From assembly GCA_041659405.1 (NCBI GenBank), contig JBAZYK010000001.1:180001-212000 (forward strand): 32,000 nt of DNA, given 5' to 3'. This DNA comes from Candidatus Altimarinota bacterium. GTDB lineage: Bacteria; Patescibacteriota; Gracilibacteria; UBA1369. How positions within the stretch are numbered: position 1 is the first letter of the stretch; each line of letters begins with the position of its first letter. The notes below the pieces were generated by a model. That model was not told the origin of the DNA. It searched no databases and saw only the letters and a list, made by a program, of their open reading frames with translations. This document shows positions 1,531-13,538 of the stretch, one piece after another. The position numbers and the translations under genes were made by a program.

Positions 1531-2724
1531 CTACGTATATTTCCAAAAATTCTCTTTATTGACGGAGTGCTGCGATTCAATTTTATCTTCATAAAGCTTT
1601 ATAAAAGCGATTGATGGTTTTTCAGCATGGCCATATTTAATTTCCATTGGAACCAGTTTTCCAGTCAGGTTGTTTAATAAAACAAGATCCACTTCGGCCA
1701 TATTTTTTGATCTCCAGAAAAATAGCTTGTATGGATTGCCGAAATATTGCATGTCCCAACTTAAAGTATTTACTACTAAATTTTCAAACATTGCGCCGAT
1801 ATCCGTGCGGTTTTCAGGCAGCACAAAATTGTCGATAAGTGCGTTTCTAATGCCAAGATCAGTAAAGTATATTTTAAAATTTCTGGTTACTTCTTTCCGT
1901 GGATTGCCTGAAAAAGCTTTTAAAATATGGATAATTTTAAATTTTTCACAAAGGCCCAAATATTCAACTACTGTTTTCCTGTTGATCTCCAGTTTAAGCG
2001 CAAGTTCATTTGGATTCACTTCCGATCCAATCTGCAAAGCAATCATATGCAAAAGTCGCTTGAAGACTTCAGGCATTCGTATGCCTTCCAATTCAAAAAT
2101 GTCTTTGTAAAGAAAACTGTTTATATAGTTTTTTAAAAGCTCAATTTTGGCCTCTCTGCCTTCTGTTAAAAAAACTCCCGGCATACTCCCATAAAGTAAA
2201 AAATCGTTTATTGAAGCTTCAATTTTGCCTTTATTAACAAGTTTATTGTATTTTCCAAGATTGAAATCCGCATTTAAATCCTGATTGATTTCGCGAAAAG
2301 TCAGCGGGAACATGTCCAGTTGAATGTTTCTGCCGTACAAACTGTCTCCGATATTTTTTAGCATCAAAAATGAGGCTGATCCTGTGGCAATAACTTTTAT
2401 ATTTTGGAAGTGATCGTGAATTAATTTTAAAATAGATCCGGATTTTTGCAGATGTTGGATTTCATCCAAAAGAAGCAATTTTTGTTTATTGGCTGATTGT
2501 TTTTCAGGAGATCCTAAAATATTTTCTAAAGTCGCAAGATCGGGCTTGAAAATATTCCTTGCCCCAATTTCTTCAAAATCAAAATAGATTGAATTGAAAT
2601 TTGCGCCCTGTACTCTTTTAATCTCAAAAGTCTTTCCAACCTGCCTCTGCCCGACTAAAAGTATTACTTTATTGTCTTTGGAAGCCAATAAATCGTTGAT
2701 TCTTGCCGTGATATGTCTTTGCAT
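1531..2724 (-). CDS. AAA+ ATPase of the COG1373 / DUF4143-containing type
   Basis: Walker A-like GQRQVGKT and Walker B-like LLLLDEIQ. The length and C-terminal region (FFWRS....EVDLVL) are typical of the AAA_14 + DUF4143 architecture. Confidence 0.8.
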   Translation of the reverse strand: MQRHITARINDLLASKDNKVILLVGQRQVGKTFEIKRVQGANFNSIYFDFEEIGARNIFKPDLATLENILGSPEKQSANKQKLLLLDEIQHLQKSGSILKLIHDHFQNIKVIATGSASFLMLKNIGDSLYGRNIQLDMFPLTFREINQDLNADFNLGKYNKLVNKGKIEASINDFLLYGSMPGVFLTEGREAKIELLKNYINSFLYKDIFELEGIRMPEVFKRLLHMIALQIGSEVNPNELALKLEINRKTVVEYLGLCEKFKIIHILKAFSGNPRKEVTRNFKIYFTDLGIRNALIDNFVLPENRTDIGAMFENLVVNTLSWDMQYFGNPYKLFFWRSKNMAEVDLVLLNNLTGKLVPMEIKYGHAEKPSIAFIKLYEDKIESQHSVNKENFWKYT

Positions 2725-2774
2725 ATTGGTACTATAATACTAAATAAACCATCTATATTGGTATTATAATACCA
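2723..2774 (-). promoter_or_regulatory. Two 18-nt direct repeats with embedded -10-like hexamers and a perfect 16-bp palindrome, abutting the ATPase start codon
   Basis: ATATTGGTACTATAATAC (2723-2740) and ATATTGGTATTATAATAC (2755-2772) differ at one position and are 32 nt apart. TGGTATTATAATACCA (2759-2774) is a perfect palindrome. On the coding strand the proximal copy reads GTATTATAGTACCAAT directly followed by ATG, which suggests a leaderless or near-leaderless mRNA. Confidence 0.45.
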
Positions 2775-2811
2775 CTTTCAGGCTTTTTCAAGTGAAGAAA
2801 TTGCTGGCGAT

Positions 2812-5408: not shown

Positions 5409-6023
5409 CTATTTTATTTTTCCGGCGGCAAACCAACGGATGACTTCCGGATACCATAATTTTTCCAGGAATTGGACTTTTTCTTTGAGCTTTTCGGCAG
5501 TGTCACTTGGATCAATGGCAATTTTTTTCTGAACGATGATTTCGCCTGTATCTACGCCTTCATCTACAAAATGAATAGTGCAGCCCGTTTCTTTTTCGCC
5601 GGCCTTTAAGACTTCTTCATGGACATTAGCCCCAAAATGCCCGGGCCCGGAAAACTTTGGCATAAGAGCAGGGTGAACATTTATAATGCGGCGCGGGAAT
5701 TGACGCACAAAAGCAGGCGTTAGAATGCGCATGTAGCCGACCAAAACCACTAAATCAACTTCATGCTCTTTTAAAATGCGGGCAAGTTCTTCATCGTATT
5801 CTTCACGTGTTTTTAAAGCCCCATCAGACTTTTTGGGATCAATAAAAAGCGTTTTAAATCCCTGCGCCTGTGCACGTTCAAGTGCGTAAGCATTTTTTTT
5901 ATTACTAACAACAATCGTCAATTCAATGCCGGGCATTTTTCCATTTTTAATCTGCTCGATAATGGCTTGCAGATCTGTCCCTTTGGTTGAGGCTAAAACG
6001 CCGATTTTAAAATTTTTCATCAT
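5409..6023 (-). CDS. purN: Phosphoribosylglycinamide formyltransferase (PurN-type formyltransferase)
   Basis: IGVLASTKGTDLQAII, DLVVLVGYMRIL, INVHPALMPKFSG and GCTIHFVDEGVDTGEII are the PurN catalytic N/H/D blocks. The length of about 200 aa fits. Confidence 0.8.
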   Translation of the reverse strand: MMKNFKIGVLASTKGTDLQAIIEQIKNGKMPGIELTIVVSNKKNAYALERAQAQGFKTLFIDPKKSDGALKTREEYDEELARILKEHEVDLVVLVGYMRILTPAFVRQFPRRIINVHPALMPKFSGPGHFGANVHEEVLKAGEKETGCTIHFVDEGVDTGEIIVQKKIAIDPSDTAEKLKEKVQFLEKLWYPEVIRWFAAGKIK

Positions 6024-6066
6024 GAATCGATATTACGCTTTTCTATTTGAAAGTTCTATTTCTTCT

Positions 6067-6972
6067 TTAATCGATCTCATTTTTCTTCAATGGTGGTAAA
6101 CCCAATTTTTTGCGAATGGTTAAGCCTGTTGGCGTAACTGCAAGTCCACCAAGTGCGGTTTCACGCAATTTTGGTGACATAATTTTGGCAATGTTATTCA
6201 TGGCCATAATAACATCATCCAAGGGAATGAAACTTTCTATTCCGGCAATGGAAGCATCGGATGCAGCGCAAGCCGCAGATGCGCCAAGCATGTTTCGCTT
6301 AATGCAAGGCACTGCCACCAAACCACCGAGTGGGTCGCAAACCAGTGCCAAATAGCTTTTTAAGGCCATTGCTGCTGCATTACAAGCCTGCTGCGGTGTT
6401 CCTCCACGTAATTCGGTTAAAGCGGCCGTGGCCATTGTAACAGCGGCTCCAACCTCGGCCTGGCATCCTCCGGCCGCCGCAGAAAGTGTGGCATTTTCAG
6501 CAATCAAAATACCAATTGCCGATGCGGTAAAAAGGGCTTTAATTACTTTTTCTTCAGAGTATTTACATTCTTCTTCCGCCGCCAATAAAACTCCAGGAAC
6601 TACACCTGCGCCTCCGGCTGTTGGGAAAGCCACAATTCTACCCATGGCGGAATTGGTTTCGCCAGTGGCTGTGGCATAGGCCATCGCTTTAATTACAAGT
6701 GGCGGCATAATCAGCTTCTTTTTGTCTTTCAAAGCTTTCATAAGCTTTGCAGCGCTTCCACCAGCCATATTAAACGCAGACATTTCGGGCTTTTTGATGG
6801 CTTTGGAAACGGCATCCCACATCACAGTGTGTGTTTTTTTCATTTTGGCGATAACCTCTTCCCTCTTTTTTCCGGAAAAACTCATTTCATAATGAATTGC
6901 CACTTCACCAATGCTCATTTTGTGCTTTTTGCAGAGGTTTAATAGTTGTTTAGCCGTTTGGAATGAATACAT
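6067..6972 (-). CDS. sdaAA: L-serine ammonia-lyase (iron-sulfur dependent), alpha subunit
   Basis: Gly/Ala-rich core (FPTAGGAGVVPG, AAGGCQAEVG, CDPLGGLV.VPCI.RN) typical of SdaAA. It lies directly downstream of the beta subunit. Confidence 0.9.
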   Translation of the reverse strand: MYSFQTAKQLLNLCKKHKMSIGEVAIHYEMSFSGKKREEVIAKMKKTHTVMWDAVSKAIKKPEMSAFNMAGGSAAKLMKALKDKKKLIMPPLVIKAMAYATATGETNSAMGRIVAFPTAGGAGVVPGVLLAAEEECKYSEEKVIKALFTASAIGILIAENATLSAAAGGCQAEVGAAVTMATAALTELRGGTPQQACNAAAMALKSYLALVCDPLGGLVAVPCIKRNMLGASAACAASDASIAGIESFIPLDDVIMAMNNIAKIMSPKLRETALGGLAVTPTGLTIRKKLGLPPLKKNEID

Positions 6973-7009
6973 TTTTTTAAATTAATGATTAGTAATGAGT
7001 AATTTGAGA

Positions 7010-7720
7010 TTATTTCTCCGGGCTGGTTAATGACCTTACATCAGCGATTCCTGGCAAATCTTCCAATTTAAAAATTTCGGTTAATTTTAAATCACGACCT
7101 TCCATGTTAATGATCGACAAAGCGTGATGATCAACGGTGGCAGTTTGAATATCGTGAATGCGGAATCCATATTTCTTGATTGCGGCACAAAGATTATCAA
7201 GATCTTTCTGGGCGTTTTTATGCCAAACAACCAGAGTTTTAAATTGTCCGGCAACACCGTGAAGATTCACTTTAAACTGGTCAATTTTTACAACCTTGAT
7301 CATTCCTCCACCTAATGAAGAACCAATTATCACCATTGGTTTGCGATCCCATTTTTCCAGAATAACTTTCACGGTATTTGGATGATACTCCGGCCCTAAA
7401 TCGGCAGTTTTAAATTCATATTCGATTCCGGCGTTTTTGGCCAAATCAAAAGAATTTTTAATGCGAGGATCGGATGTTTTGAATTTCATAATTCCCGCGA
7501 CCAAAGCCCGATCTGTGGCATGTCCCTTATAAACTGTGGCAAAAGATCCATGCAAAATAAAAGTAACTTTTTCGGGCGTGCCATGAAAAAGTGCACGGGA
7601 GATTTGGCCAATTTTGCAGGCACCGGCAGTATGTGAACTGGATGGACCGACCATAATCGGCCCGGCGATATCAAAAACGGAATAACGATGCGGAGCTGAT
7701 GAAGTCTTGATTTCGGACAC
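7010..7720 (-). CDS. sdaAB: L-serine ammonia-lyase, beta subunit (GTG start)
   Basis: SVFDIAGPIMVGPSSSHTAGA signature and a C-terminal ACT-like region. The beta-then-alpha order is the usual sdaAB-sdaAA arrangement. Confidence 0.9.
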   Translation of the reverse strand: MSEIKTSSAPHRYSVFDIAGPIMVGPSSSHTAGACKIGQISRALFHGTPEKVTFILHGSFATVYKGHATDRALVAGIMKFKTSDPRIKNSFDLAKNAGIEYEFKTADLGPEYHPNTVKVILEKWDRKPMVIIGSSLGGGMIKVVKIDQFKVNLHGVAGQFKTLVVWHKNAQKDLDNLCAAIKKYGFRIHDIQTATVDHHALSIINMEGRDLKLTEIFKLEDLPGIADVRSLTSPEK

Positions 7721-7857
7721 TTTTTAGTTGGTAATTAAAAAGTAGTAATTAGTAGGTTTGAAGAGCTTTGGCTTTTAGTTTACGAATAAACGGGCTATTG
7801 AGCAAGTAATTTTTCGTAAACCTGCCAATTAAATTGTTTTTATTTGCCTTTACCACC

Positions 7858-7891
7858 AAGTAATACTAAAATGTAGTTAAGTAATACTAAA
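7858..7891 (+). promoter_or_regulatory. Two identical 13-nt direct repeats, 21 bp apart, upstream of the antitoxin gene (candidate operator/promoter)
   Basis: AAGTAATACTAAA occurs at 7858-7870 and 7879-7891, with the ATG at 7902. Each copy contains a -10-like TAATAC. A third partial AAGTAAT is at 7804-7810. Confidence 0.5.
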
Positions 7892-7901
7892 TATATTAAA
7901 A

Positions 7902-8156
7902 ATGACTACTATTTCATTTAAAGCGGACGAAAAACTCAAAAATAAGCTGGAAACAGTTGCTAAAGACAAAGGGATCAATACCTCGGCTTATATTAAGCTG
8001 ATTCTTACCAAAGAAGTGAACAATGAACTTGCGACTTTAACTTCAAATGGGCTAACTGTTGCTGAAGAAATGGAAATCCTCAAGTCTGCCGAAAGTGATA
8101 AAAAATATGGACCTTTTGATAACGTTAAAGATTTGCTCAAAAGCTTAAAAAAATAA
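7902..8156 (+). CDS. Type II antitoxin, ribbon-helix-helix / RelB-DinJ-like
   Basis: It is small (84 aa). The N-terminus ISFKADEKLKNKLETVAKDKGINTSAYIKLIL fits a beta-strand plus two helices (RHH). It ends 9 nt before a RelE/ParE-type toxin gene. Confidence 0.65.
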   Translation: MTTISFKADEKLKNKLETVAKDKGINTSAYIKLILTKEVNNELATLTSNGLTVAEEMEILKSAESDKKYGPFDNVKDLLKSLKK

Positions 8157-8165
8157 GCTTCAAAA

Positions 8166-8423
8166 ATGAAAATAACTTACACTGAAAGATTCAAGAAAAA
8201 CTTTAATAAATTGCCTGTAGAAATCCAGAATCGTTTTAGTGAACGTCTTGAAATTTTCATTCAAAATCCCGATTATCCTTTACTCAGGGTTCATCCACTA
8301 AAAGGTAACCTGGCTGGGCTTAGAGCATTTTCAATTACCGGTGATTACCGGGCCATCTACTTTAAAATACATAAAGAAGCCATTGAATTTGTTGATATCG
8401 GCACCCACAATCAGGTTTACTGA
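8166..8423 (+). CDS. RelE/ParE superfamily toxin (RelE/StbE/YafQ-like mRNA interferase)
   Basis: 85 aa. The pattern HPLKGNLAGLRAFSITGDYRAIY....EAIEFVDIGTHNQVY is the typical RelE/ParE core and C-terminus. Confidence 0.8.
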   Translation: MKITYTERFKKNFNKLPVEIQNRFSERLEIFIQNPDYPLLRVHPLKGNLAGLRAFSITGDYRAIYFKIHKEAIEFVDIGTHNQVY

Positions 8424-8572
8424 TGCTCCCTTTTAGCAAGCCGCATAAGTTTCGGTTGTGATCCTATCAAATCAATAAAATAACAATATCGATGGAGTAT
8501 GATCGAAACTTTTAAAGCATTTGCCGGCTTAGCTGTTGAGGAAGAAATGAAAATACTTGCCGCAATCGTTTC

Positions 8573-8609
8573 AAAATGATACAATTATCTTATAAAATGA
8601 TACAATTAT
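8573..8609 (+). promoter_or_regulatory. Two identical 16-nt direct repeats, 21 bp apart, immediately upstream of the Fic gene
   Basis: AAAATGATACAATTAT occurs at 8573-8588 and 8594-8609, with the ATG at 8613. Each copy carries a -10-like TACAAT. The proximal TACAAT ends 6 nt before the ATG. Confidence 0.5.
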
Positions 8610-8612
8610 AAA

Positions 8613-9668
8613 ATGCAGATAAAACCTCTCACAAAGCGGCAAAGGGCTATCATCACCATTATTCAAAGGCTTGATCACGCCCAAACTAAGAATATTACCC
8701 AAGAAATTCAAGTCCATTTTGATCAGGCGACGCGCATTACGATCATAAGGGATTTAAATTCACTTGTTCGTCAAAAACTGATCCAAAAGCATGGAGAGGG
8801 CAGGGGTGTCTGGTACCAGTCTTTAACTCCGGACTTGTTAACTCCGTTTGACCCCGAGGAATATTTCAAAATTGAGCCCGATCGTAGAATTATCAAGAAA
8901 GATACTGCAAATTTTGCTGATTATAAAAACTGGGCGAAAATTTTCGATGATGGAGAATTAGTCCAACTGGCCAAGTTAACTGGAAAATATTTAGCCCATT
9001 TCAAATCCTATAAGGACAATAAACTTGCCCGTGAACTGGAGAGAATCATGATTGAGTTTTCATGGAAATCATCTCATATTGAGGGAAATACCTATTCGTT
9101 GCTGGATACGGAACAGCTTATCAAATCCACAATTGAAGCCAAAGACCATCCTCATGAAGAAGCCGTAATGATTTTAAACCACAAAACCGCGTTAGATTAT
9201 ATTTGGAAAAATTCTGCAGATTTTAAAACTATTAATTTGCGCAAAATTGAAGAAATTCACTCTTTGGTTGTTAAAAATATGGGTGTAAAAACGGGGTTGC
9301 GTCATGGACCGGTAGGTATTATTGGCACAACGTATAGGCCGTTTGATAATATTTACCAGATTCGGGAAGCAATAGAACAATTATGTGGGCTTATTAACAG
9401 GCAAAAAAATCCTTTCATCAAAGCTTTCATTGTAACGGTTGGACTTGCATATATTCAACCCTTTGAAGACGGAAATAAAAGGACTTCTCGCCTTATTGGT
9501 AATGCTATTTTACTGGCATTCCACTGCTGTCCGTTATCGTATCGCAGTATTAATGAAATTGAATATAAAAAAGCTATCATACTTTTTTACGAACAACATA
9601 GCCTGGTTCTATTAAAAAAGCTCTTTGTGGAACAGTATGAATTTGCTGTGAATAATTATTTTTTGTAA
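8613..9668 (+). CDS. Fic/Doc family protein with N-terminal winged-helix domain; active-site motif degenerate (QPFEDGNKRTSR)
   Basis: HTH-like N-terminus (KRQRAIITIIQRL...TRITIIRDLNSLVRQKLI). Inhibitory-helix motif SSHIEG, matching (S/T)xxxE(G/N), at residues 153-158. The Fic core has IQPFEDGNKRTSRL in place of HxFx(D/E)GNGRxxR. Confidence 0.85.
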   Translation: MQIKPLTKRQRAIITIIQRLDHAQTKNITQEIQVHFDQATRITIIRDLNSLVRQKLIQKHGEGRGVWYQSLTPDLLTPFDPEEYFKIEPDRRIIKKDTANFADYKNWAKIFDDGELVQLAKLTGKYLAHFKSYKDNKLARELERIMIEFSWKSSHIEGNTYSLLDTEQLIKSTIEAKDHPHEEAVMILNHKTALDYIWKNSADFKTINLRKIEEIHSLVVKNMGVKTGLRHGPVGIIGTTYRPFDNIYQIREAIEQLCGLINRQKNPFIKAFIVTVGLAYIQPFEDGNKRTSRLIGNAILLAFHCCPLSYRSINEIEYKKAIILFYEQHSLVLLKKLFVEQYEFAVNNYFL

Positions 9669-9711
9669 GGATGTGCAATTTGAAATTCTGAATATATGGA
9701 AAATACCCAAA

Positions 9712-10548
9712 CTACAATAAACTTCCGTACAAAGGGGAAAACAGGCAATCTTTTGGATCGATGAGTAAATCTTTTGGGTTAATTTTCGCGTCGGTAAAGG
9801 TTACCGGGGCGTTACTGATAATCGTAAACGGAGTGCATTCATCGGCTTCGCCCATCACCAGGTGCGCCGCAGTGGCCAGGTTATCGGCAACTGCCTGTTG
9901 GGTAACTTTTAATTTGTTGTTATAAAGGTCCTTGTGTCCACGCAAATCGTTTACGCCTTTAAAGCCGGCGTATCCAAGGGCAATACCGCTAACTCCTCTG
10001 CGCAGTGGTCGGCAGGTGGAATCACTGATTATAATGCCGAGTTTTTTAAGCTTGTAGATTTTTTTGAGTTCTTTTTGAAGCTGAGCTGCAACTTTGAAAG
10101 AATCTTTTGGCCAAAGCACGGCAAAGCCCTTTTCTGTATTTGATCTATCTATCCCCGCCCATGGGATGAGGATGCCGTTTTTTAATGTGAGTGGCACTTC
10201 GTCAATTATTGCCTGCTGGAAGAATTCCCTCCCCGGGGAGGAATTTGCTGAACTTTTGTTCGCATAAGCCGCATGAATGGAAGTTTGCGGTGATCGTGTC
10301 GAGCTTATTATTTGGTCTGCTTCGCTTGCCACCAACCTGTCAAATTCTTGCGGATTATTTATTTTCACAACTTGCCCTTGAGTCACCGCTACTACTTTTG
10401 ATGAAATTACCAAAATGTCACCATTACAAAGGCGGCCCTGATTTAATTTGGATTTACTCTTTCTTAGTGACTTTATTATCACCTCTAAAAGATCATCTTT
10501 GGGTGTAATTATCTTCGACTTTACCGCTTCTATTTCTAGTTTATTCAT
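9712..10548 (-). CDS. CofE-like (F420-0:gamma-glutamyl ligase family, COG1478) protein with an internal low-complexity insertion
   Basis: ILVISSKVVAVTQG, IIISDSTCRPLRRGVSGIALGYAGF and ADNLATAAHLVMGEADE blocks match the CofE fold family. A Ser-rich segment of about 35 aa (SSTRSPQTSIHAAYANKSSANSSPGREFF) interrupts it. Confidence 0.7.
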   Translation of the reverse strand: MNKLEIEAVKSKIITPKDDLLEVIIKSLRKSKSKLNQGRLCNGDILVISSKVVAVTQGQVVKINNPQEFDRLVASEADQIISSTRSPQTSIHAAYANKSSANSSPGREFFQQAIIDEVPLTLKNGILIPWAGIDRSNTEKGFAVLWPKDSFKVAAQLQKELKKIYKLKKLGIIISDSTCRPLRRGVSGIALGYAGFKGVNDLRGHKDLYNNKLKVTQQAVADNLATAAHLVMGEADECTPFTIISNAPVTFTDAKINPKDLLIDPKDCLFSPLYGSLL

Positions 10549-10586
10549 ATTTTTGCATTTATCCTTGTAATATTGTTTTATAATAA

Positions 10587-10611
10587 TCCATTACACTCGT
10601 CCATTACACTC
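10587..10611 (-). promoter_or_regulatory. Adjacent tandem duplication (period 13) upstream of the CofE-like gene
   Basis: TCCATTACACTC occurs at 10587-10598 and 10600-10611. On the gene strand this reads GAGTGTAATGGA twice, 39-63 nt upstream of the ATG at 10548, followed by a TATTATAAA -10-like stretch. Confidence 0.4.
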
Positions 10612-10859
10612 TATTGACTTGGTTATTTCAATTTGCTACAATGATCTGAACATTAAGAATAAGTATAGATGATGTCCGAGTCGAATCTGGTTTTGGACAA
10701 AATCCCAACTAGACTTAAAAAGTTCATTCCGCTCTTTCACAATCAGCATAACACACCCGCAGAAAACGTTGAATGGTTAACTGCCAACGCTACCCCCGAA
10801 TCTTTTTTCGGAAAAACAAAAACAAAACGCCCTAGAAAAGCACTCAAAATAAGCGCTTT

Positions 10860-11163
10860 TAACCCTTCTACGTTCTCTGCTCTGTGATGGCCCTCACTGA
10901 CCAACCGGGCCGACCCTACCGCTGCCCTGGTGATTTCTGTTCATCTAACGGTGCTTAAATCACGCCAACAGGCGGTCCCTGGCCGGACTGTAAACTTTAG
11001 CCGAAGCAAGGCAGAACACATGAACTTTCTGGTCAATTGTTTCAAAACAAAAATAAATTCCACCAAAACAAAAATATTCTCAGCCGTGACTTATTTTCTT
11101 ATCTCTACGGCCGATAGGATACCGGAATTTTCCCCCCGCCCTTAAAAGCGGGGTTTTTATTTG
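10860..11163 (+). ncRNA. Candidate structured non-coding RNA of unassigned family, ending in an intrinsic terminator
   Basis: The local GC-rich patch is free of credible ORFs. Nested helices are GGCCC/GGGCC (10889-10893 / 10907-10911), CCGCTG/CA(G)GCGG (10919-10924 / 10969-10975), GTGATTT/AAATCAC (10930-10936 / 10957-10963) and CTGT/ACGG with a U-G pair that works only on the plus strand. A terminator lies at 11134-11163. The 5' boundary is a guess. Confidence 0.3.
11134..11163 (+). terminator. Rho-independent terminator (plus strand)
   Basis: CCCCGC (11134-11139), an 8-nt loop, GCGGGG (11148-11153), then TTTTTATTT. Confidence 0.7.
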
Positions 11164-11239
11164 TGTACGGCATGTTCAAAACGTGGATACATCAAAAAAA
11201 ATGCCGAAACCAATTTGGATCCGATAAAACTGTAATTAA

Positions 11240-12379
11240 CTAAATAGAATCTTGAGCGATCTGCTCCGGTAATGGCAAGATAGTAGATGATACCTCTTTA
11301 GCCTGTGGCTGAATTTCAGGAACAATAACCGGCGCTACAGAAGGGCTTGCGCTGCTTGCCTGTAAATTAACGGTTTGAACTTCCGGCACCGCTATGGCTG
11401 ATATTGGAGCGGCTGTTTTTTCTTCAACCTTGGCCAAAATCTTTTCCTGTGCTTGAACCAATTTTTCTTCCTGCTTGATAGCTGCGGTCAGGTTGTTATC
11501 CAAAATAATATTTTGCGTTGGATATGGCCATGACCAGCCACGAGCATAAAAGTCTTTATGGAGCTGCTTAATAAGGTCGCTTTGAGGGGTCAAAATGCCT
11601 TTTTTGGAATCGACCCAACATCTGATTCTAAGAGTATTGTGGGAATTACCCGGAGGCAAAACCACAACACTTGGCTTAGGCTCCAGCAAAATCTTATTTA
11701 CTTTCTTGATTGAAGTCTTGATTAAATCAATAACTTCATGCAGGTCATAATCAAGATGAACCGAAAGCTCAAATTGAAATCTGCGCAATGGCGCATAGGT
11801 CATTGATGTAACCTGTTTACTAAAGAGATCGGCATTTGGAATGATAACTCTGGTGCCATCAAAATTTTTGACTACCGTGTAGCGGGATTGGATTTTTTCA
11901 ATGATGCCCATGGTTCCGCCAATTTTAATCCAATCACCAATGGTAAATTGTTTTTGCAAAAGGATCACAATTCCGGCAAAGAAGTTCATCAAGAAATCTC
12001 GCATGGCAAAGCCAATACCAAAGGCAGCCGCTGCAACAACACCGGTTAAATCAATTCCGGCAATTTTCAAGCCAATAGTAATACCAATGCCTAAAACTCC
12101 GGCATAAACGGAACGCGCAATAACGATTTGCACCTCCTGATGGCTTTCTTCAAGGCCCTGTTCGGTCATTTTGTTTTCGACCAGATTTTTTACCAGTTTG
12201 GCAACAATGAATGAAGCCAAAACAACGATAATACCGGTAATCCAAAGCGGAATTGCTTTGAAAAAGCTATCAAATAAACTCTGAAAATTATTGGCTGTAT
12301 CGGTAGCAAGATTGGTGGTCTTGTCTGCAGTTTGAGCCAACGCTCTGGAAATGCCGAAAATGTTTTGTGAAAAGTTCAT
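11240..12379 (-). CDS. Mechanosensitive ion channel family protein (MscS-like)
   Basis: GIGFAMRDFLMNFFAGIVILLQKQFTIGDWIKIGGTMGIIEKIQSRYTVVKNFDGTRVIIPNADL is the MscS TM3 plus beta-domain signature. I prefer the ATG at 12379 (MNFSQ...), 1 nt after the upstream stop, over the listed start at 12409. Confidence 0.85.
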   Translation of the reverse strand: MNFSQNIFGISRALAQTADKTTNLATDTANNFQSLFDSFFKAIPLWITGIIVVLASFIVAKLVKNLVENKMTEQGLEESHQEVQIVIARSVYAGVLGIGITIGLKIAGIDLTGVVAAAAFGIGFAMRDFLMNFFAGIVILLQKQFTIGDWIKIGGTMGIIEKIQSRYTVVKNFDGTRVIIPNADLFSKQVTSMTYAPLRRFQFELSVHLDYDLHEVIDLIKTSIKKVNKILLEPKPSVVVLPPGNSHNTLRIRCWVDSKKGILTPQSDLIKQLHKDFYARGWSWPYPTQNIILDNNLTAAIKQEEKLVQAQEKILAKVEEKTAAPISAIAVPEVQTVNLQASSASPSVAPVIVPEIQPQAKEVSSTILPLPEQIAQDSI

Positions 12380-12380
12380 A

Positions 12381-13538
12381 TTAATTTGAGGTAGGGGCCG
12401 GGGCAGCATCTTCCGATCCGTTTTGAGTTTTTAAAAAGGCTCCGCCGCTTTGGTCAGCCGTTACTGTTGGCTGCACAACCGCTTCATTCTGTAAAAGCTT
12501 TTCACGATTTTTGGCTAACTGCTCTTCTTCTTTCATTCGTTCATTGATCATTTGGGAAAATTCATTTGGATCCATGGCTTTGCTTTTTAGCGCAACGGAT
12601 TCCAAATCTTTTTCAAAACTGAGTGAAGTAACAGCATACGGAGCATCAAATCCGGCATCTTCCAATTTGTTCTGAATACCGATAAAAATTTTGGATTCAA
12701 TGCGGCGCCATAAACTCTTGGAATCAACCCAAAAGCGGACCTCTAAAACAATGTAACTTTCATCCAAATCGGTAATTACAACATTTGCTTTTGGTTCCAA
12801 AAAAATGCGGGCATCTTGCTTAACTTCATTTAAACAAATTTTGATCACGTCCTGAACACTTACGCCATAACGACAATAAACCGGCACTTTTAAACGGCGC
12901 ATCGGATTGCTGGTATAACTTAAAACCTGGCTTTTATAAAGCTCGGCATTTGGCACAATCAAGCGTAATCCATCATAAGTTGTAAGATAAGTGGCACGAG
13001 TGCGAATTTCAACAACTTTGCCCTTGGTTCCATTTACTTTGATCCAATCGCCAATCGTAAAAGGGCGTGAAGCCAAAATGGCAAGTCCGGCCACAAAATT
13101 GGATATTGTATCCTGTAATCCAAAAGAAATTCCAAATCCAACTGCTGCCAATAATGTTGTGATGTTGATGCCGGCAATGGCGAGAGAAATGGTTGTTCCA
13201 ATCACCGCGACTCCAACAAAGGCGACTCTTCCGGCAATAATCATAACCTCCTGATGCTCATTTTCCACCTTGGCCGCAAGGCGACTTTCGACTATGTTTT
13301 TGACCATAAGGCCTATCCCGAGAGATACAACAAAGATAACAATTGCCGTAATCCACAAAGGCAAACTTTGCAGTACAAAAGCCAAAATATTCCAGGATGA
13401 GCCTGTGTCTTTTGATGTAGCGGTTGAGCCCACTTGAGCAAAAGCCGCCGGAATACCTAAGGCATTTATCAGCACAAAAAGAAGCATGCTGAATTTAAGT
13501 GTTTTTTTCATTAATTTGTTTTGGGTGTTTTTTGTCAT
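12381..13538 (-). CDS. Mechanosensitive ion channel family protein (MscS-like), paralog of the downstream gene
   Basis: Signal-peptide-like N-terminus (LLFVLINALGIPAAFAQ). MscS core GFGISFGLQDTISNFVAGLAILASRPFTIGDWIKVNGTKGKVVEIRTRATYLTTYDGLRLIVPNAEL. Confidence 0.85.
   Translation of the reverse strand: MTKNTQNKLMKKTLKFSMLLFVLINALGIPAAFAQVGSTATSKDTGSSWNILAFVLQSLPLWITAIVIFVVSLGIGLMVKNIVESRLAAKVENEHQEVMIIAGRVAFVGVAVIGTTISLAIAGINITTLLAAVGFGISFGLQDTISNFVAGLAILASRPFTIGDWIKVNGTKGKVVEIRTRATYLTTYDGLRLIVPNAELYKSQVLSYTSNPMRRLKVPVYCRYGVSVQDVIKICLNEVKQDARIFLEPKANVVITDLDESYIVLEVRFWVDSKSLWRRIESKIFIGIQNKLEDAGFDAPYAVTSLSFEKDLESVALKSKAMDPNEFSQMINERMKEEEQLAKNREKLLQNEAVVQPTVTADQSGGAFLKTQNGSEDAAPAPTSN

What the first reader, a model, noticed from the sequence alone, without database searches (positions are those of the whole stretch)
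10549..11239. ORF-free 690-bp region with GC-rich nested helices and a strong terminator: unassigned structured RNA locus
This is the longest non-coding stretch in the window. All six frames are broken by stops, and the two listed ORFs of about 70 aa look like noise.

Plus-strand features:
- GGCCC/GGGCC hairpin (10889-10911)
- a three-tier nested hairpin at 10919-10975: CCGCTG/CA(G)GCGG, GTGATTT/AAATCAC, and CTGT/ACGG with a U-G pair valid only on the plus strand
- a possible pseudoknot GTTCAT (10939-10944) with ATGAAC (11020-11025)
- two CAAAACAAAAATA repeats 21 nt apart (11043-11055 and 11064-11076)
- a canonical terminator at 11134-11163, with no plus-strand gene downstream

Separately, the hairpin at 10765-10791 has a G-U pair that works only on the minus strand (AGCGUUG/CAACGUU). 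That suggests a structured leader for the CofE-like gene.

I could not match the locus to tmRNA, RNase P, SRP or 6S RNA by eye.
Basis: seen in the sequence. Interest (0 to 1): 0.6.

Follow-up and report, generated by a model that had tools for sequence, protein, structure and literature searches.

The report
New large folded RNA gene (Peribacteria)
The gene-free gap holds a separately transcribed gene for a roughly 515-base, intricately folded RNA that matches no catalogued RNA family, is kept in one or two copies by most relatives searched among ultra-small Peribacteria/Peregrinibacteria bacteria, and has an unknown job.

Summary
The locus is real. Window 10649-11163 (+) is a stand-alone non-coding RNA gene, with a near-consensus extended -10 promoter at 10614-10642 and an intrinsic terminator at 11134-11163.

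- **No known family.** Rfam 15 (4227 families) gives no credible match to it or to 18 homologues.
- **Distribution.** A covariance model of the 145-nt core (10872-11016) finds full-length matches in 35/36 genomes of the family, 80/151 of the order and 27/151 of the class. It finds none in about 143 other Patescibacteria. Named hits are Candidatus Peribacteria/Peregrinibacteria/Gracilibacteria MAGs.
- **Structure.** On 57 distinct copies, 94.9% of cells pair (78.8% shuffled, about 36% slid), and 29 of 41 pairs show compensatory changes. Covariation also supports a pseudoknot (UGGC 10980-10983 with GCCG 11000-11003) and a loop-loop contact (UGACC 10898-10902 with GGUCA 11031-11035).
- **Excluded.** It is not tmRNA, RNase P or 6S, which lie elsewhere. 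It is not SRP RNA: Ffh/FtsY were not found in any relative searched. It is not coding.
- **Paralogue.** A second copy lies on contig C3.
- **Function.** Unknown. My best guess is a protein-binding scaffold or sponge that displays A/C-rich single strands.
Several proposed helices, the pseudoknot and the CofE-leader hairpin are not supported.

The scan had already flagged the C3 paralogue (e1-2551019) and a similar RNA in another genome (e1-2552869).

The parts
10588..10611 (+). Upstream box. Two direct copies of CCATTACACTC (10588-10598, 10601-10611), containing the GTCCATTACA motif just upstream of the -35 hexamer.
   Evidence: GTCCATTACA or TGTCCAT-like sequence lies about 10 nt upstream of -35 in homologous loci of several families and in both paralogue types. 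That it is a regulator site is inference.
10614..10642 (+). Promoter: TTGACT, 17 nt, TACAAT with a TG extension (TTTGCTACAAT).
   Evidence: It is the only promoter-like site in 10300-11500. TTGAC[CT]-N-TTTGnTAynAT is present at the same relative place in all 19 type-A homologues examined. Only 5 such sites exist in the 1.5-Mb genome.
10649..11163 (+). Predicted primary transcript, about 515 nt here and 418-543 nt in homologues.
   Evidence: This is the span from promoter to terminator. The ends are inferred, not measured.
10674..10698 (+). 5'-domain hairpin, GUCC...GGAC around CGAAUCUGGUUUUGG.
   Evidence: The homologous stem covaries: UGACAU:AUGUCA, AUGCCCUC:GAGGCAU, GUCACCCC:GGGGUGAC (read by eye). 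The apparent AUG start lies in or next to this stem.
10715..10830 (+). Genus-specific 5' insert.
   Evidence: It is present only in G000 and G001 in the full-length alignment.
10827..10870 (+). ACGCCCUAGAA motif (10827-10837) and hairpin P0 (10833-10870) directly before the core.
   Evidence: The motif is conserved at about 90% in paralogue loci of other genomes. A helix at this place is kept with different sequences in every genus.
10872..11016 (+). Conserved 145-nt core. P1 is 10876-10885 with 11006-11015. P2 is 10888-10912. P3 is 10925-10972. P4 is 10974-10989.
   Evidence: Covariance-model match of 151.6 bits for R1 and 133.1 bits for R2. On 57 copies, 94.9% of cells pair and 29/41 pairs have changes on both sides.
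10980..11003 (+). Pseudoknot: P4 loop UGGC (10980-10983) pairs with GCCG (11000-11003).
   Evidence: 99.1% paired. The fourth pair is C-G in 51, U-A in 3 and A-U in 2 copies. The first pair is U-A or U-G.
11022..11042 (+). Hairpin P5. Its loop GGUCA (11031-11035) pairs with the P2 loop UGACC (10898-10902).
   Evidence: Partner variants include UGACC:GGUCA, UGACU:AGUCA, UAACC:GGUUA, AGACC:GGUCU and GACGA:UCGUC. 54% of copies have at least 6 contiguous Watson-Crick pairs, against 30% with swapped partners and 9% shuffled.
11043..11076 (+). A/C-rich single-stranded tracts (CAAAACAAAAAUA twice) flanking the 5' strand of P6 (AAAUUCC, 11055-11061).
   Evidence: AAA[CT]AAAA occurs at 4.5 per kb in family members, against 0.35 per kb in the genome and about 0.08 per sequence after shuffling. 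The tracts are conserved in all homologues.
11055..11130 (+). Long-range helix P6 (AAAUUCC 11055-11061 with GGAAUUU 11124-11130) enclosing hairpin P7 (11076-11120), which has a conserved internal loop (..CAG.. / ..GAUAG..).
   Evidence: P6 covaries: AAAUUCC:GGAAUUU, AAAAUCC:GGAUUUU, and AAAUCUC:GAGAUUU in type B. P7 pairs have compensatory changes.
11134..11163 (+). Intrinsic terminator: CCCCGC..GCGGGG followed by a U run.
   Evidence: Found by the terminator scan. A stem plus T-run is present in every complete homologue, with different stem sequences.

Best explanation
Window 10649-11163 (+) is a stand-alone gene for a large, highly structured non-coding RNA of a family not in Rfam. It is one of two old paralogues in this genome; the other is on contig C3. 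The family is restricted to the Peribacteria/Peregrinibacteria part of the CPR.

Shown:
- Its own strong promoter and terminator.
- A multi-helix core locked by a pseudoknot and a loop-loop contact.
- Conserved A/C-rich single strands.
- No conserved ORF.
- The gene downstream usually converges on it.

Inferred: the folded core acts as a scaffold that displays several AAACAAAAACAAA tracts to an RNA-binding protein. The RNA would then work as a ribonucleoprotein component or a protein sponge, as CrcZ, RsmZ/CsrB or 6S do for their partners. Paralogous copies and a conserved box upstream of the promoter would allow regulated dosage.

I put about 0.95 on 'real ncRNA gene of a new family' and about 0.35-0.4 on the scaffold/sponge mechanism. 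The confidence figure below blends the two.
For: - **Transcription unit.** Promoter and terminator are present, and the same promoter type occurs in all 19 type-A homologues.
- **No known family.** No Rfam family reaches threshold on the window. Relaxed scans of the window and of 18 homologous loci give only terminator-like hits.
- **Conservation.** The region is 70-88% identical across genera while its flanks diverge.
- **Covariation.** RNAalifold finds 25/48 pairs with compensatory changes. On 57 copies, 94.9% of cells pair against 78.8% shuffled, with 0/500 shuffles reaching any measure, and slid controls give about 36%.
- **Tertiary contacts.** The pseudoknot and the kissing loop both covary.
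- **Strand.** G-U pairs fix the plus strand, for example a G-U at one P4 pair in 53/57 copies.
- **Distribution.** 35/36 genomes of the family, 80/151 of the order, 27/151 of the class, and 0 outside the class.
- **A/C-rich motif.** It is enriched 13-fold over the genome.
- **Stand-alone.** In 9 of 12 loci inspected, the nearest ORF downstream of the RNA is on the opposite strand.
- **Paralogues.** Two paralogue groups appear in a FastTree of the core; support values were not examined.
Against: - No expression data exist, so the ends and the abundance are inferred.
- No partner protein is identified. Hfq was not found in this genome, and no neighbouring gene is consistently linked.
- The many invariant junction nucleotides and the intricate tertiary fold go beyond what known sponge RNAs need. 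They would fit a ribozyme, a ligand-binding RNA or a self-assembling RNA equally well.
- The A/C-rich tracts could be flexible linkers only.
Confidence: 0.55

Rival explanations
1. It is an 'ornate' RNA that works largely on its own. It could be a ribozyme, a ligand-sensing RNA, or a self-assembling RNA whose UGACC/GGUCA loops pair between molecules, as reported for ROOL, GOLLD, OLE and raiA (from my own knowledge of recent cryo-EM work, not checked here).
For: - The RNA is 418-543 nt long.
- It has a pseudoknot plus a loop-loop contact of 5-7 bp.
- Many junction nucleotides are invariant.
- In many lineages an upstream strand (AGCAGAGA, AGCAGAA, AAGUAUA, AGCAAAG) can pair with the same bases as the 5' strand of P1. 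This suggests two exclusive folds.
Against: - There is no cleavage-site or ligand-pocket signature that I can name.
- The alternative pairing is not universal: it is absent in genus g20, and own partners beat swapped partners only modestly (30% against 14% with at least 8 bp).
- Sequence alone cannot tell an intramolecular loop contact from an intermolecular one.
Confidence: 0.22
2. It is a trans-acting base-pairing small RNA. Its unstructured A/C-rich tracts would pair with U/G-rich stretches of mRNAs.
For: Single-stranded conserved tracts sit next to a terminator hairpin, a common small-RNA layout. Weak sub-threshold Rfam hits to sRNA families occur at the 3' end.
Against: Those Rfam hits cover only the terminator. 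The RNA is 3-5 times longer than typical base-pairing sRNAs, and most of the conservation is in the folded core. The tracts are low-complexity and vary in length. No Hfq was found.
Confidence: 0.08
3. It is a very divergent copy of a universal RNA (SRP RNA, 6S, tmRNA or RNase P RNA) that Rfam models fail to recognise.
For: It is near-universal within its own family at 1-2 copies per genome. No SRP RNA was found in this genome or in five relatives. No tmRNA was found in this assembly.
Against: - RNase P RNA (143.7 bits) and 6S (50 bits) lie elsewhere in this genome.
- Five relatives have normal tmRNA (106-147 bits) at loci other than their copies of this RNA.
- The SRP proteins that an SRP RNA would bind gave no credible match in the genomes searched. 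The SRP54-type GTPase domain was found in 0/36 family genomes and 0/61 class genomes, and once, marginally (25.9 bits), in 101 phylum genomes. The Ffh M domain was not found in this genome.
- PMC8080830 states that SRP subunits are missing in many CPR bacteria.
Confidence: 0.03
4. The region is protein-coding, a pseudogene, or a cis-regulatory leader (for the CofE-like gene or for a small ORF starting at 10669).
For: A 72-aa ORF (10669-10887) and a 71-aa ORF (10930-11145) exist. Several genera share an AUG followed by a P-P-N-x-F-S-like reading.
Against: - Neither ORF has a Pfam hit.
- In G001 of the same genus, reading from the homologous AUG AUG stops after 11 codons (read by eye), and the longest ORF there is 31 aa.
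- Two genera have UAG at codon 4 and one has no AUG (read by eye).
- The longest ORFs are 31-76 aa at differing positions.
- The AUG lies in or next to a covarying helix.
- The terminator is followed by a convergent gene.
- The CofE-like gene and the RNA do not co-occur (f25 14/15 against 0/15; f17 0/5 against 5/5).
Confidence: 0.02

Closest known systems
Large 'ornate' bacterial ncRNAs of unknown or partly known function: OLE (RF01071), ROOL, GOLLD, raiA
   Same: It is several hundred nucleotides long, with many covarying helices plus pseudoknot and loop-loop contacts. It is restricted to one lineage, is a stand-alone gene, and has no assigned biochemical job.
   Different: It shows no sequence or structure match to any of them in cmscan at gathering or relaxed thresholds. 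Its host range is CPR Peribacteria/Peregrinibacteria. Its helix layout and conserved motifs differ (UGAUGG, UGACY/RGUCA, UGGC/GCCA, ACGCCCUAGAA).
Protein-sponge RNAs with repeated single-stranded motifs: CrcZ/CrcY (A-rich AANAANAA, Hfq/Crc), RsmX/Y/Z and CsrB/C (GGA, CsrA)
   Same: It has its own promoter and terminator, several copies of a short A-rich motif in unpaired regions, paralogous copies in one genome, and a conserved box upstream of the promoter.
   Different: The only CrcZ match is 10 bits against a cut-off of 95. No Hfq was found in the genome. The RNA has a far more elaborate and conserved tertiary core than sponges need. The partner is unknown.
6S RNA (RF00013)
   Same: Both are abundant-looking housekeeping-type RNAs that would act by binding a protein, and some bacteria carry two paralogues.
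   Different: 6S is a roughly 180-nt rod with a central bubble. This RNA is a branched multi-domain fold. A separate 6S match lies on contig C11.

Membership tests
tmRNA (RF00023 and permuted forms) | tRNA-like domain (acceptor stem, T arm, CCA end) plus a tag reading frame, recognised by ARAGORN or the Rfam models | tested here: not met
   ARAGORN finds only tRNA-Thr in the window. No tmRNA-family match appears in the window at any threshold. Relatives carry standard tmRNAs of 106-147 bits at other loci.
SRP RNA (RF00169, RF01854) | Domain IV / helix 8 motif that binds the Ffh M domain, with Ffh present in the genome | tested here: not met
   Neither SRP model matches the window or the whole genome, and RF00169 finds nothing in five relatives. 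PF02978 and PF00448 were not found in the genome. PF00448 was found in 0/36 family genomes and 0/61 class genomes.
6S RNA (RF00013) | A roughly 180-nt extended helix with a large central bubble, matching the Rfam model | tested here: not met
   There is no RF00013 match in 10400-11400 at E up to 10. The consensus fold is branched. A 50-bit 6S match lies at G000:C11:55396-55551.
RNase P RNA (RF00010/RF00011) | Conserved P4 core and catalytic-domain motifs, matching the Rfam model | tested here: not met
   There is no match in the window. RNase P RNA lies at G000:C6:80282-80714 at 143.7 bits.
Any other Rfam 15 family (including OLE, GOLLD, ROOL, HEARO, raiA, CrcZ) | Score at or above the family's gathering threshold | tested here: not met
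   The best match is Arrc14 at 33.6 bits against a cut-off of 99, driven by the terminator. CrcZ scores 10 against 95. On 18 homologous loci only NsiR1 and anti-hemB hits at the terminator appear, all below threshold.
Stand-alone structured ncRNA gene (generic) | Own promoter and terminator, conservation above the flanks, significant covariation, no conserved ORF | tested here: met
Protein-sponge RNA (CsrB/RsmZ/CrcZ type) | Multiple copies of the partner's binding motif, and a demonstrated partner protein that it titrates | tested here: inconclusive
   The repeated A/C-rich motif is enriched, but no partner is known and Hfq was not found. Binding cannot be tested with these tools.

The most novel reading that the evidence does not exclude
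This is a previously undescribed class of large RNA that is core to Peribacteria/Peregrinibacteria. Its pseudoknotted, kissing-loop core and competing P0x/P1 pairings would make it a catalytic, ligand-sensing or self-assembling machine, or the RNA subunit of an unknown ribonucleoprotein, rather than a simple regulator. It would then be a new housekeeping RNA function specific to a CPR lineage.
Probability: 0.3. Interest if true: 0.85.

Novelty: new member of a known kind. Interest (0 to 1): 0.7.

Why it matters
Large, intricately folded bacterial RNAs with no assigned function are rare, and each has been a lead to new RNA biology. This one lies in the CPR, organisms with tiny genomes that keep very little non-coding DNA. 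Even so, most genomes searched in the order keep one or two copies of a gene of about 0.45-0.5 kb behind one of the strongest-looking promoters in the genome. That argues for an important role.

The alignment, covariance model and tertiary contacts defined here make the RNA directly testable by synthesis, structure probing, cryo-EM, protein pull-down and metatranscriptome mapping. They would also let it be annotated in hundreds of MAGs where the locus is currently blank.

Tried and rejected
- **tmRNA.** This was attractive because SmpB is present and no tmRNA is found in the assembly. I rejected it because relatives have normal tmRNA elsewhere.
- **SRP RNA.** This was attractive because no SRP RNA is detectable. 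I rejected it because Ffh/FtsY were not found across the family, the class, or a 101-genome phylum sample, apart from one marginal 25.9-bit hit. PMC8080830 states that SRP subunits are absent in many CPR bacteria.
- **Functional link to the adjacent CofE-like gene.** The adjacency recurs in families f1 and f9, but the two do not co-occur across the class. Other families have sdaAB or purN as the neighbour, which is the same synteny block as window 5409-10548.
- **Small ORF or leader peptide (M-P-P-P-N-x-F-S).** Rejected on premature stops, a missing AUG, and the AUG lying in or next to a covarying helix.
No Hfq was found.
- **K-turn / C-D-box-like reading of GUGAUGG...CUGA.** Dropped because UGAC covaries with the P5 loop instead.
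- **Literature.** Six searches and two papers read turned up no description of this RNA. The Peribacteria genome paper PMC4736985 mentions Rfam only for rRNA genes, and none of my other search terms (non-coding, ncRNA, tmRNA, RNase P, signal recognition) occur in it.
- **Technical.** Single-sequence folding to locate P5 was unreliable. I replaced it with a partner-swap test.

Full report
**What is at the site.** The 691-nt gap lies between a CofE-like gene (9712-10548, minus; PF01996) and an MscS gene (11240-12409, minus). It contains only two ORFs of about 70 aa, neither with a Pfam match. The promoter scan finds one site in 10300-11500: TTGACT-17-TACAAT with a TG extension at 10614-10642 on the plus strand. 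It also finds a plus-strand intrinsic terminator at 11134-11163. Rfam 15 at gathering thresholds finds only a tRNA-Thr elsewhere in the window. At E up to 10 the region gives only a 33.6-bit Arrc14 hit (cut-off 99) that rests on the terminator, and other chance-level hits.

**Conservation.** BLASTN of the gap against 60 relatives showed that window 10864-11165 is 70-88% identical in 20 genomes of many genera. It also showed a 69%-identical second copy in this genome on contig C3. The alignment begins sharply at UCUCUGCUCUGUGAUGG and ends at a terminator whose stem differs between genera but always pairs.

The upstream part is conserved too. Every type-A homologue has TTGAC[CT]-N-TTTGnTAynAT 418-543 nt upstream of the terminator end, followed by conserved blocks and helices. 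The transcript is therefore about 515 nt here (10649-11163). An insert of about 115 nt (10715-10830) is found only in this genus.

**Structure.**
- RNAalifold on 20 copies predicts 48 pairs, 25 of them with compensatory changes.
- I built a covariance model of the 145-nt core (R1) and aligned 57 distinct copies to it.
- On my structure, 94.9% of cells pair, against 78.8% in shuffles (0/500 shuffles reach any measure) and about 36% when partners are slid. 29 of 41 pairs change on both sides. This alignment was fitted to the model, which favours the structure. The independent MAFFT alignment shows the same helices.
- G-U pairs fix the strand, for example a G-U at one P4 pair in 53 of 57 copies.

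Two tertiary contacts are supported.
- **Pseudoknot.** The P4 loop UGGC (10980-10983) pairs with GCCG (11000-11003). The fourth pair is C-G in 51 copies, U-A in 3 and A-U in 2.
- **Loop-loop contact.** The P2 loop UGACC (10898-10902) pairs with the P5 loop GGUCA (11031-11035). Partner sets include UGACU:AGUCA, UAACC:GGUUA, AGACC:GGUCU and GACGA:UCGUC. At least 6 contiguous Watson-Crick pairs occur in 54% of copies, against 30% with swapped partners and 9% shuffled.

Further 3' lie A/C-rich tracts, a covarying long-range helix P6 (AAAUUCC:GGAAUUU, and AAAUCUC:GAGAUUU in the paralogue type), hairpin P7 with a conserved internal loop, and the terminator.

In many lineages an upstream strand can pair with the same bases as the 5' strand of P1. 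It shows matching changes (AGCAGAGA, AGCAGAA, AAGUAUA, AGCAAAG), which hints at two exclusive folds. The statistics are modest and the feature is not universal.

**Not coding.** The longest ORFs in 19 homologues are 31-76 aa at different places. In G001 of the same genus, reading from the homologous AUG AUG stops after 11 codons. Two genera have UAG at codon 4 and one has no AUG (all read by eye). The AUG lies in or next to a helix that covaries.

**Not a known housekeeping RNA.**
- RNase P RNA (143.7 bits) and 6S RNA (50 bits) lie on other contigs.
- The assembly lacks a detectable tmRNA although SmpB is present. Five relatives have ordinary tmRNAs at loci different from their copies of this RNA.
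- No SRP RNA is found in this genome or in five relatives. The SRP proteins were also not found: the Ffh M domain is missing in this genome, and the SRP54-type GTPase domain was found in 0/36 family genomes and 0/61 class genomes. In a 101-genome phylum sample it was found once, marginally.
- This agrees with the remark in PMC8080830 that SRP subunits are missing in many CPR bacteria.

**Distribution and organism.**
- R1 finds full-length matches in 35/36 genomes and 25/25 genera of the family, and in 80/151 genomes of the order, with one or two copies each.
- A broader model (R2) finds it in 27/151 genomes of the class, including other orders, and in none of about 143 genomes from other classes of the phylum.
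- A pattern scan of named genomes gave 55 hits. The model confirms 41 of them. Nearly all are titled Candidatus Peribacteria, Peregrinibacteria, Gracilibacteria or Patescibacteria group. The 14 hits in other phyla fail the model, as chance predicts.
- Copies fall into two types. Type A includes the window copy, scores 125-165 bits, and lies next to a CofE-like gene or sdaAB/purN. Type B includes the C3 copy and carries ACGCCCUAGAAC before the core. A FastTree of the core groups type A across families apart from type B, which suggests an old duplication. I did not examine support values.
- Adjacency to the CofE-like gene is synteny, not a functional link: f25 has CofE in 14/15 genomes and the RNA in 0/15, while f17 has CofE in 0/5 and the RNA in 5/5.

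**How it may work.**
- Shown: a strongly promoted, terminated, intricately folded RNA with conserved unpaired AAACAAAAACAAA-type tracts. These are 13-fold enriched over the genome and about 30-fold over shuffles. In 9 of 12 loci the nearest downstream ORF is on the opposite strand. Paralogues exist, and a conserved box sits upstream of the promoter.
- Inferred: a ribonucleoprotein scaffold or protein sponge. No partner is known and Hfq was not found.
- The elaborate core would fit a ribozyme, a ligand-sensing RNA or a self-assembling RNA equally well. I rank that second.

**Prior work.** I found no paper describing this RNA. Within this scan, the C3 paralogue (e1-2551019) and a similar RNA in another Peribacteria genome (e1-2552869) were already reported as new structured RNAs. 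I reached the paralogue and the distribution independently. I did not test whether e1-2552869 belongs to the same family.

Noticed in passing
whole genome G000 (SmpB at C10:50272-50748): SmpB is present, but neither ARAGORN nor RF00023 finds a tmRNA in the 98.5%-complete assembly. Five relatives each have a normal tmRNA of about 420 nt. This is probably an assembly gap rather than a loss.
   Followed up: partly
whole genomes of the family, class and phylum samples: The SRP54-type GTPase domain (Ffh, FtsY) gave no credible match: 0/36 family genomes, 0/61 class genomes, and one marginal 25.9-bit hit in 101 Patescibacteria. No SRP RNA was found in this genome or in five relatives. This fits a remark in PMC8080830 that SRP subunits are absent in many CPR bacteria.
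   Followed up: partly
window 10565-10611: The block GTAATATTGTTTTATAA next to the CofE-like start is conserved across genera. It is followed by two direct copies of CCATTACACTC (10588-10598, 10601-10611). These may be a shared control region of the divergent CofE-like and RNA promoters.
   Followed up: partly
G000:C7:88961-88989 (-): This is one of only five near-consensus TTGAC-N-TTGnTAyAAT promoters in the genome. It is followed by AAAACTCTAAAAACTCTAAAAAACAAAC, so another A-rich RNA gene may lie there.
   Followed up: no
L083 (JAJRSV010000182.1, titled Bacteroidetes bacterium MAG), 2655-2811 (-): A 67-bit full-length match to the RNA core lies on a contig binned as Bacteroidetes. The contig is probably a mis-binned Peribacteria contig.
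   Followed up: no
window 9712-10548 and class-wide: A CofE-like (F420-0:gamma-glutamyl ligase family) gene is present in 70/151 genomes of this CPR class. Among the 14 control genomes it was found only in three archaea. Its role in these reduced bacteria is unclear.
   Followed up: no
window 10674-10698 and 10793-10815: The 5' domain of this genus carries two copies of the CGAAUC..UUUUGG/CGG hairpin motif where other genera have one. This looks like an internal duplication within the RNA gene.
   Followed up: partly
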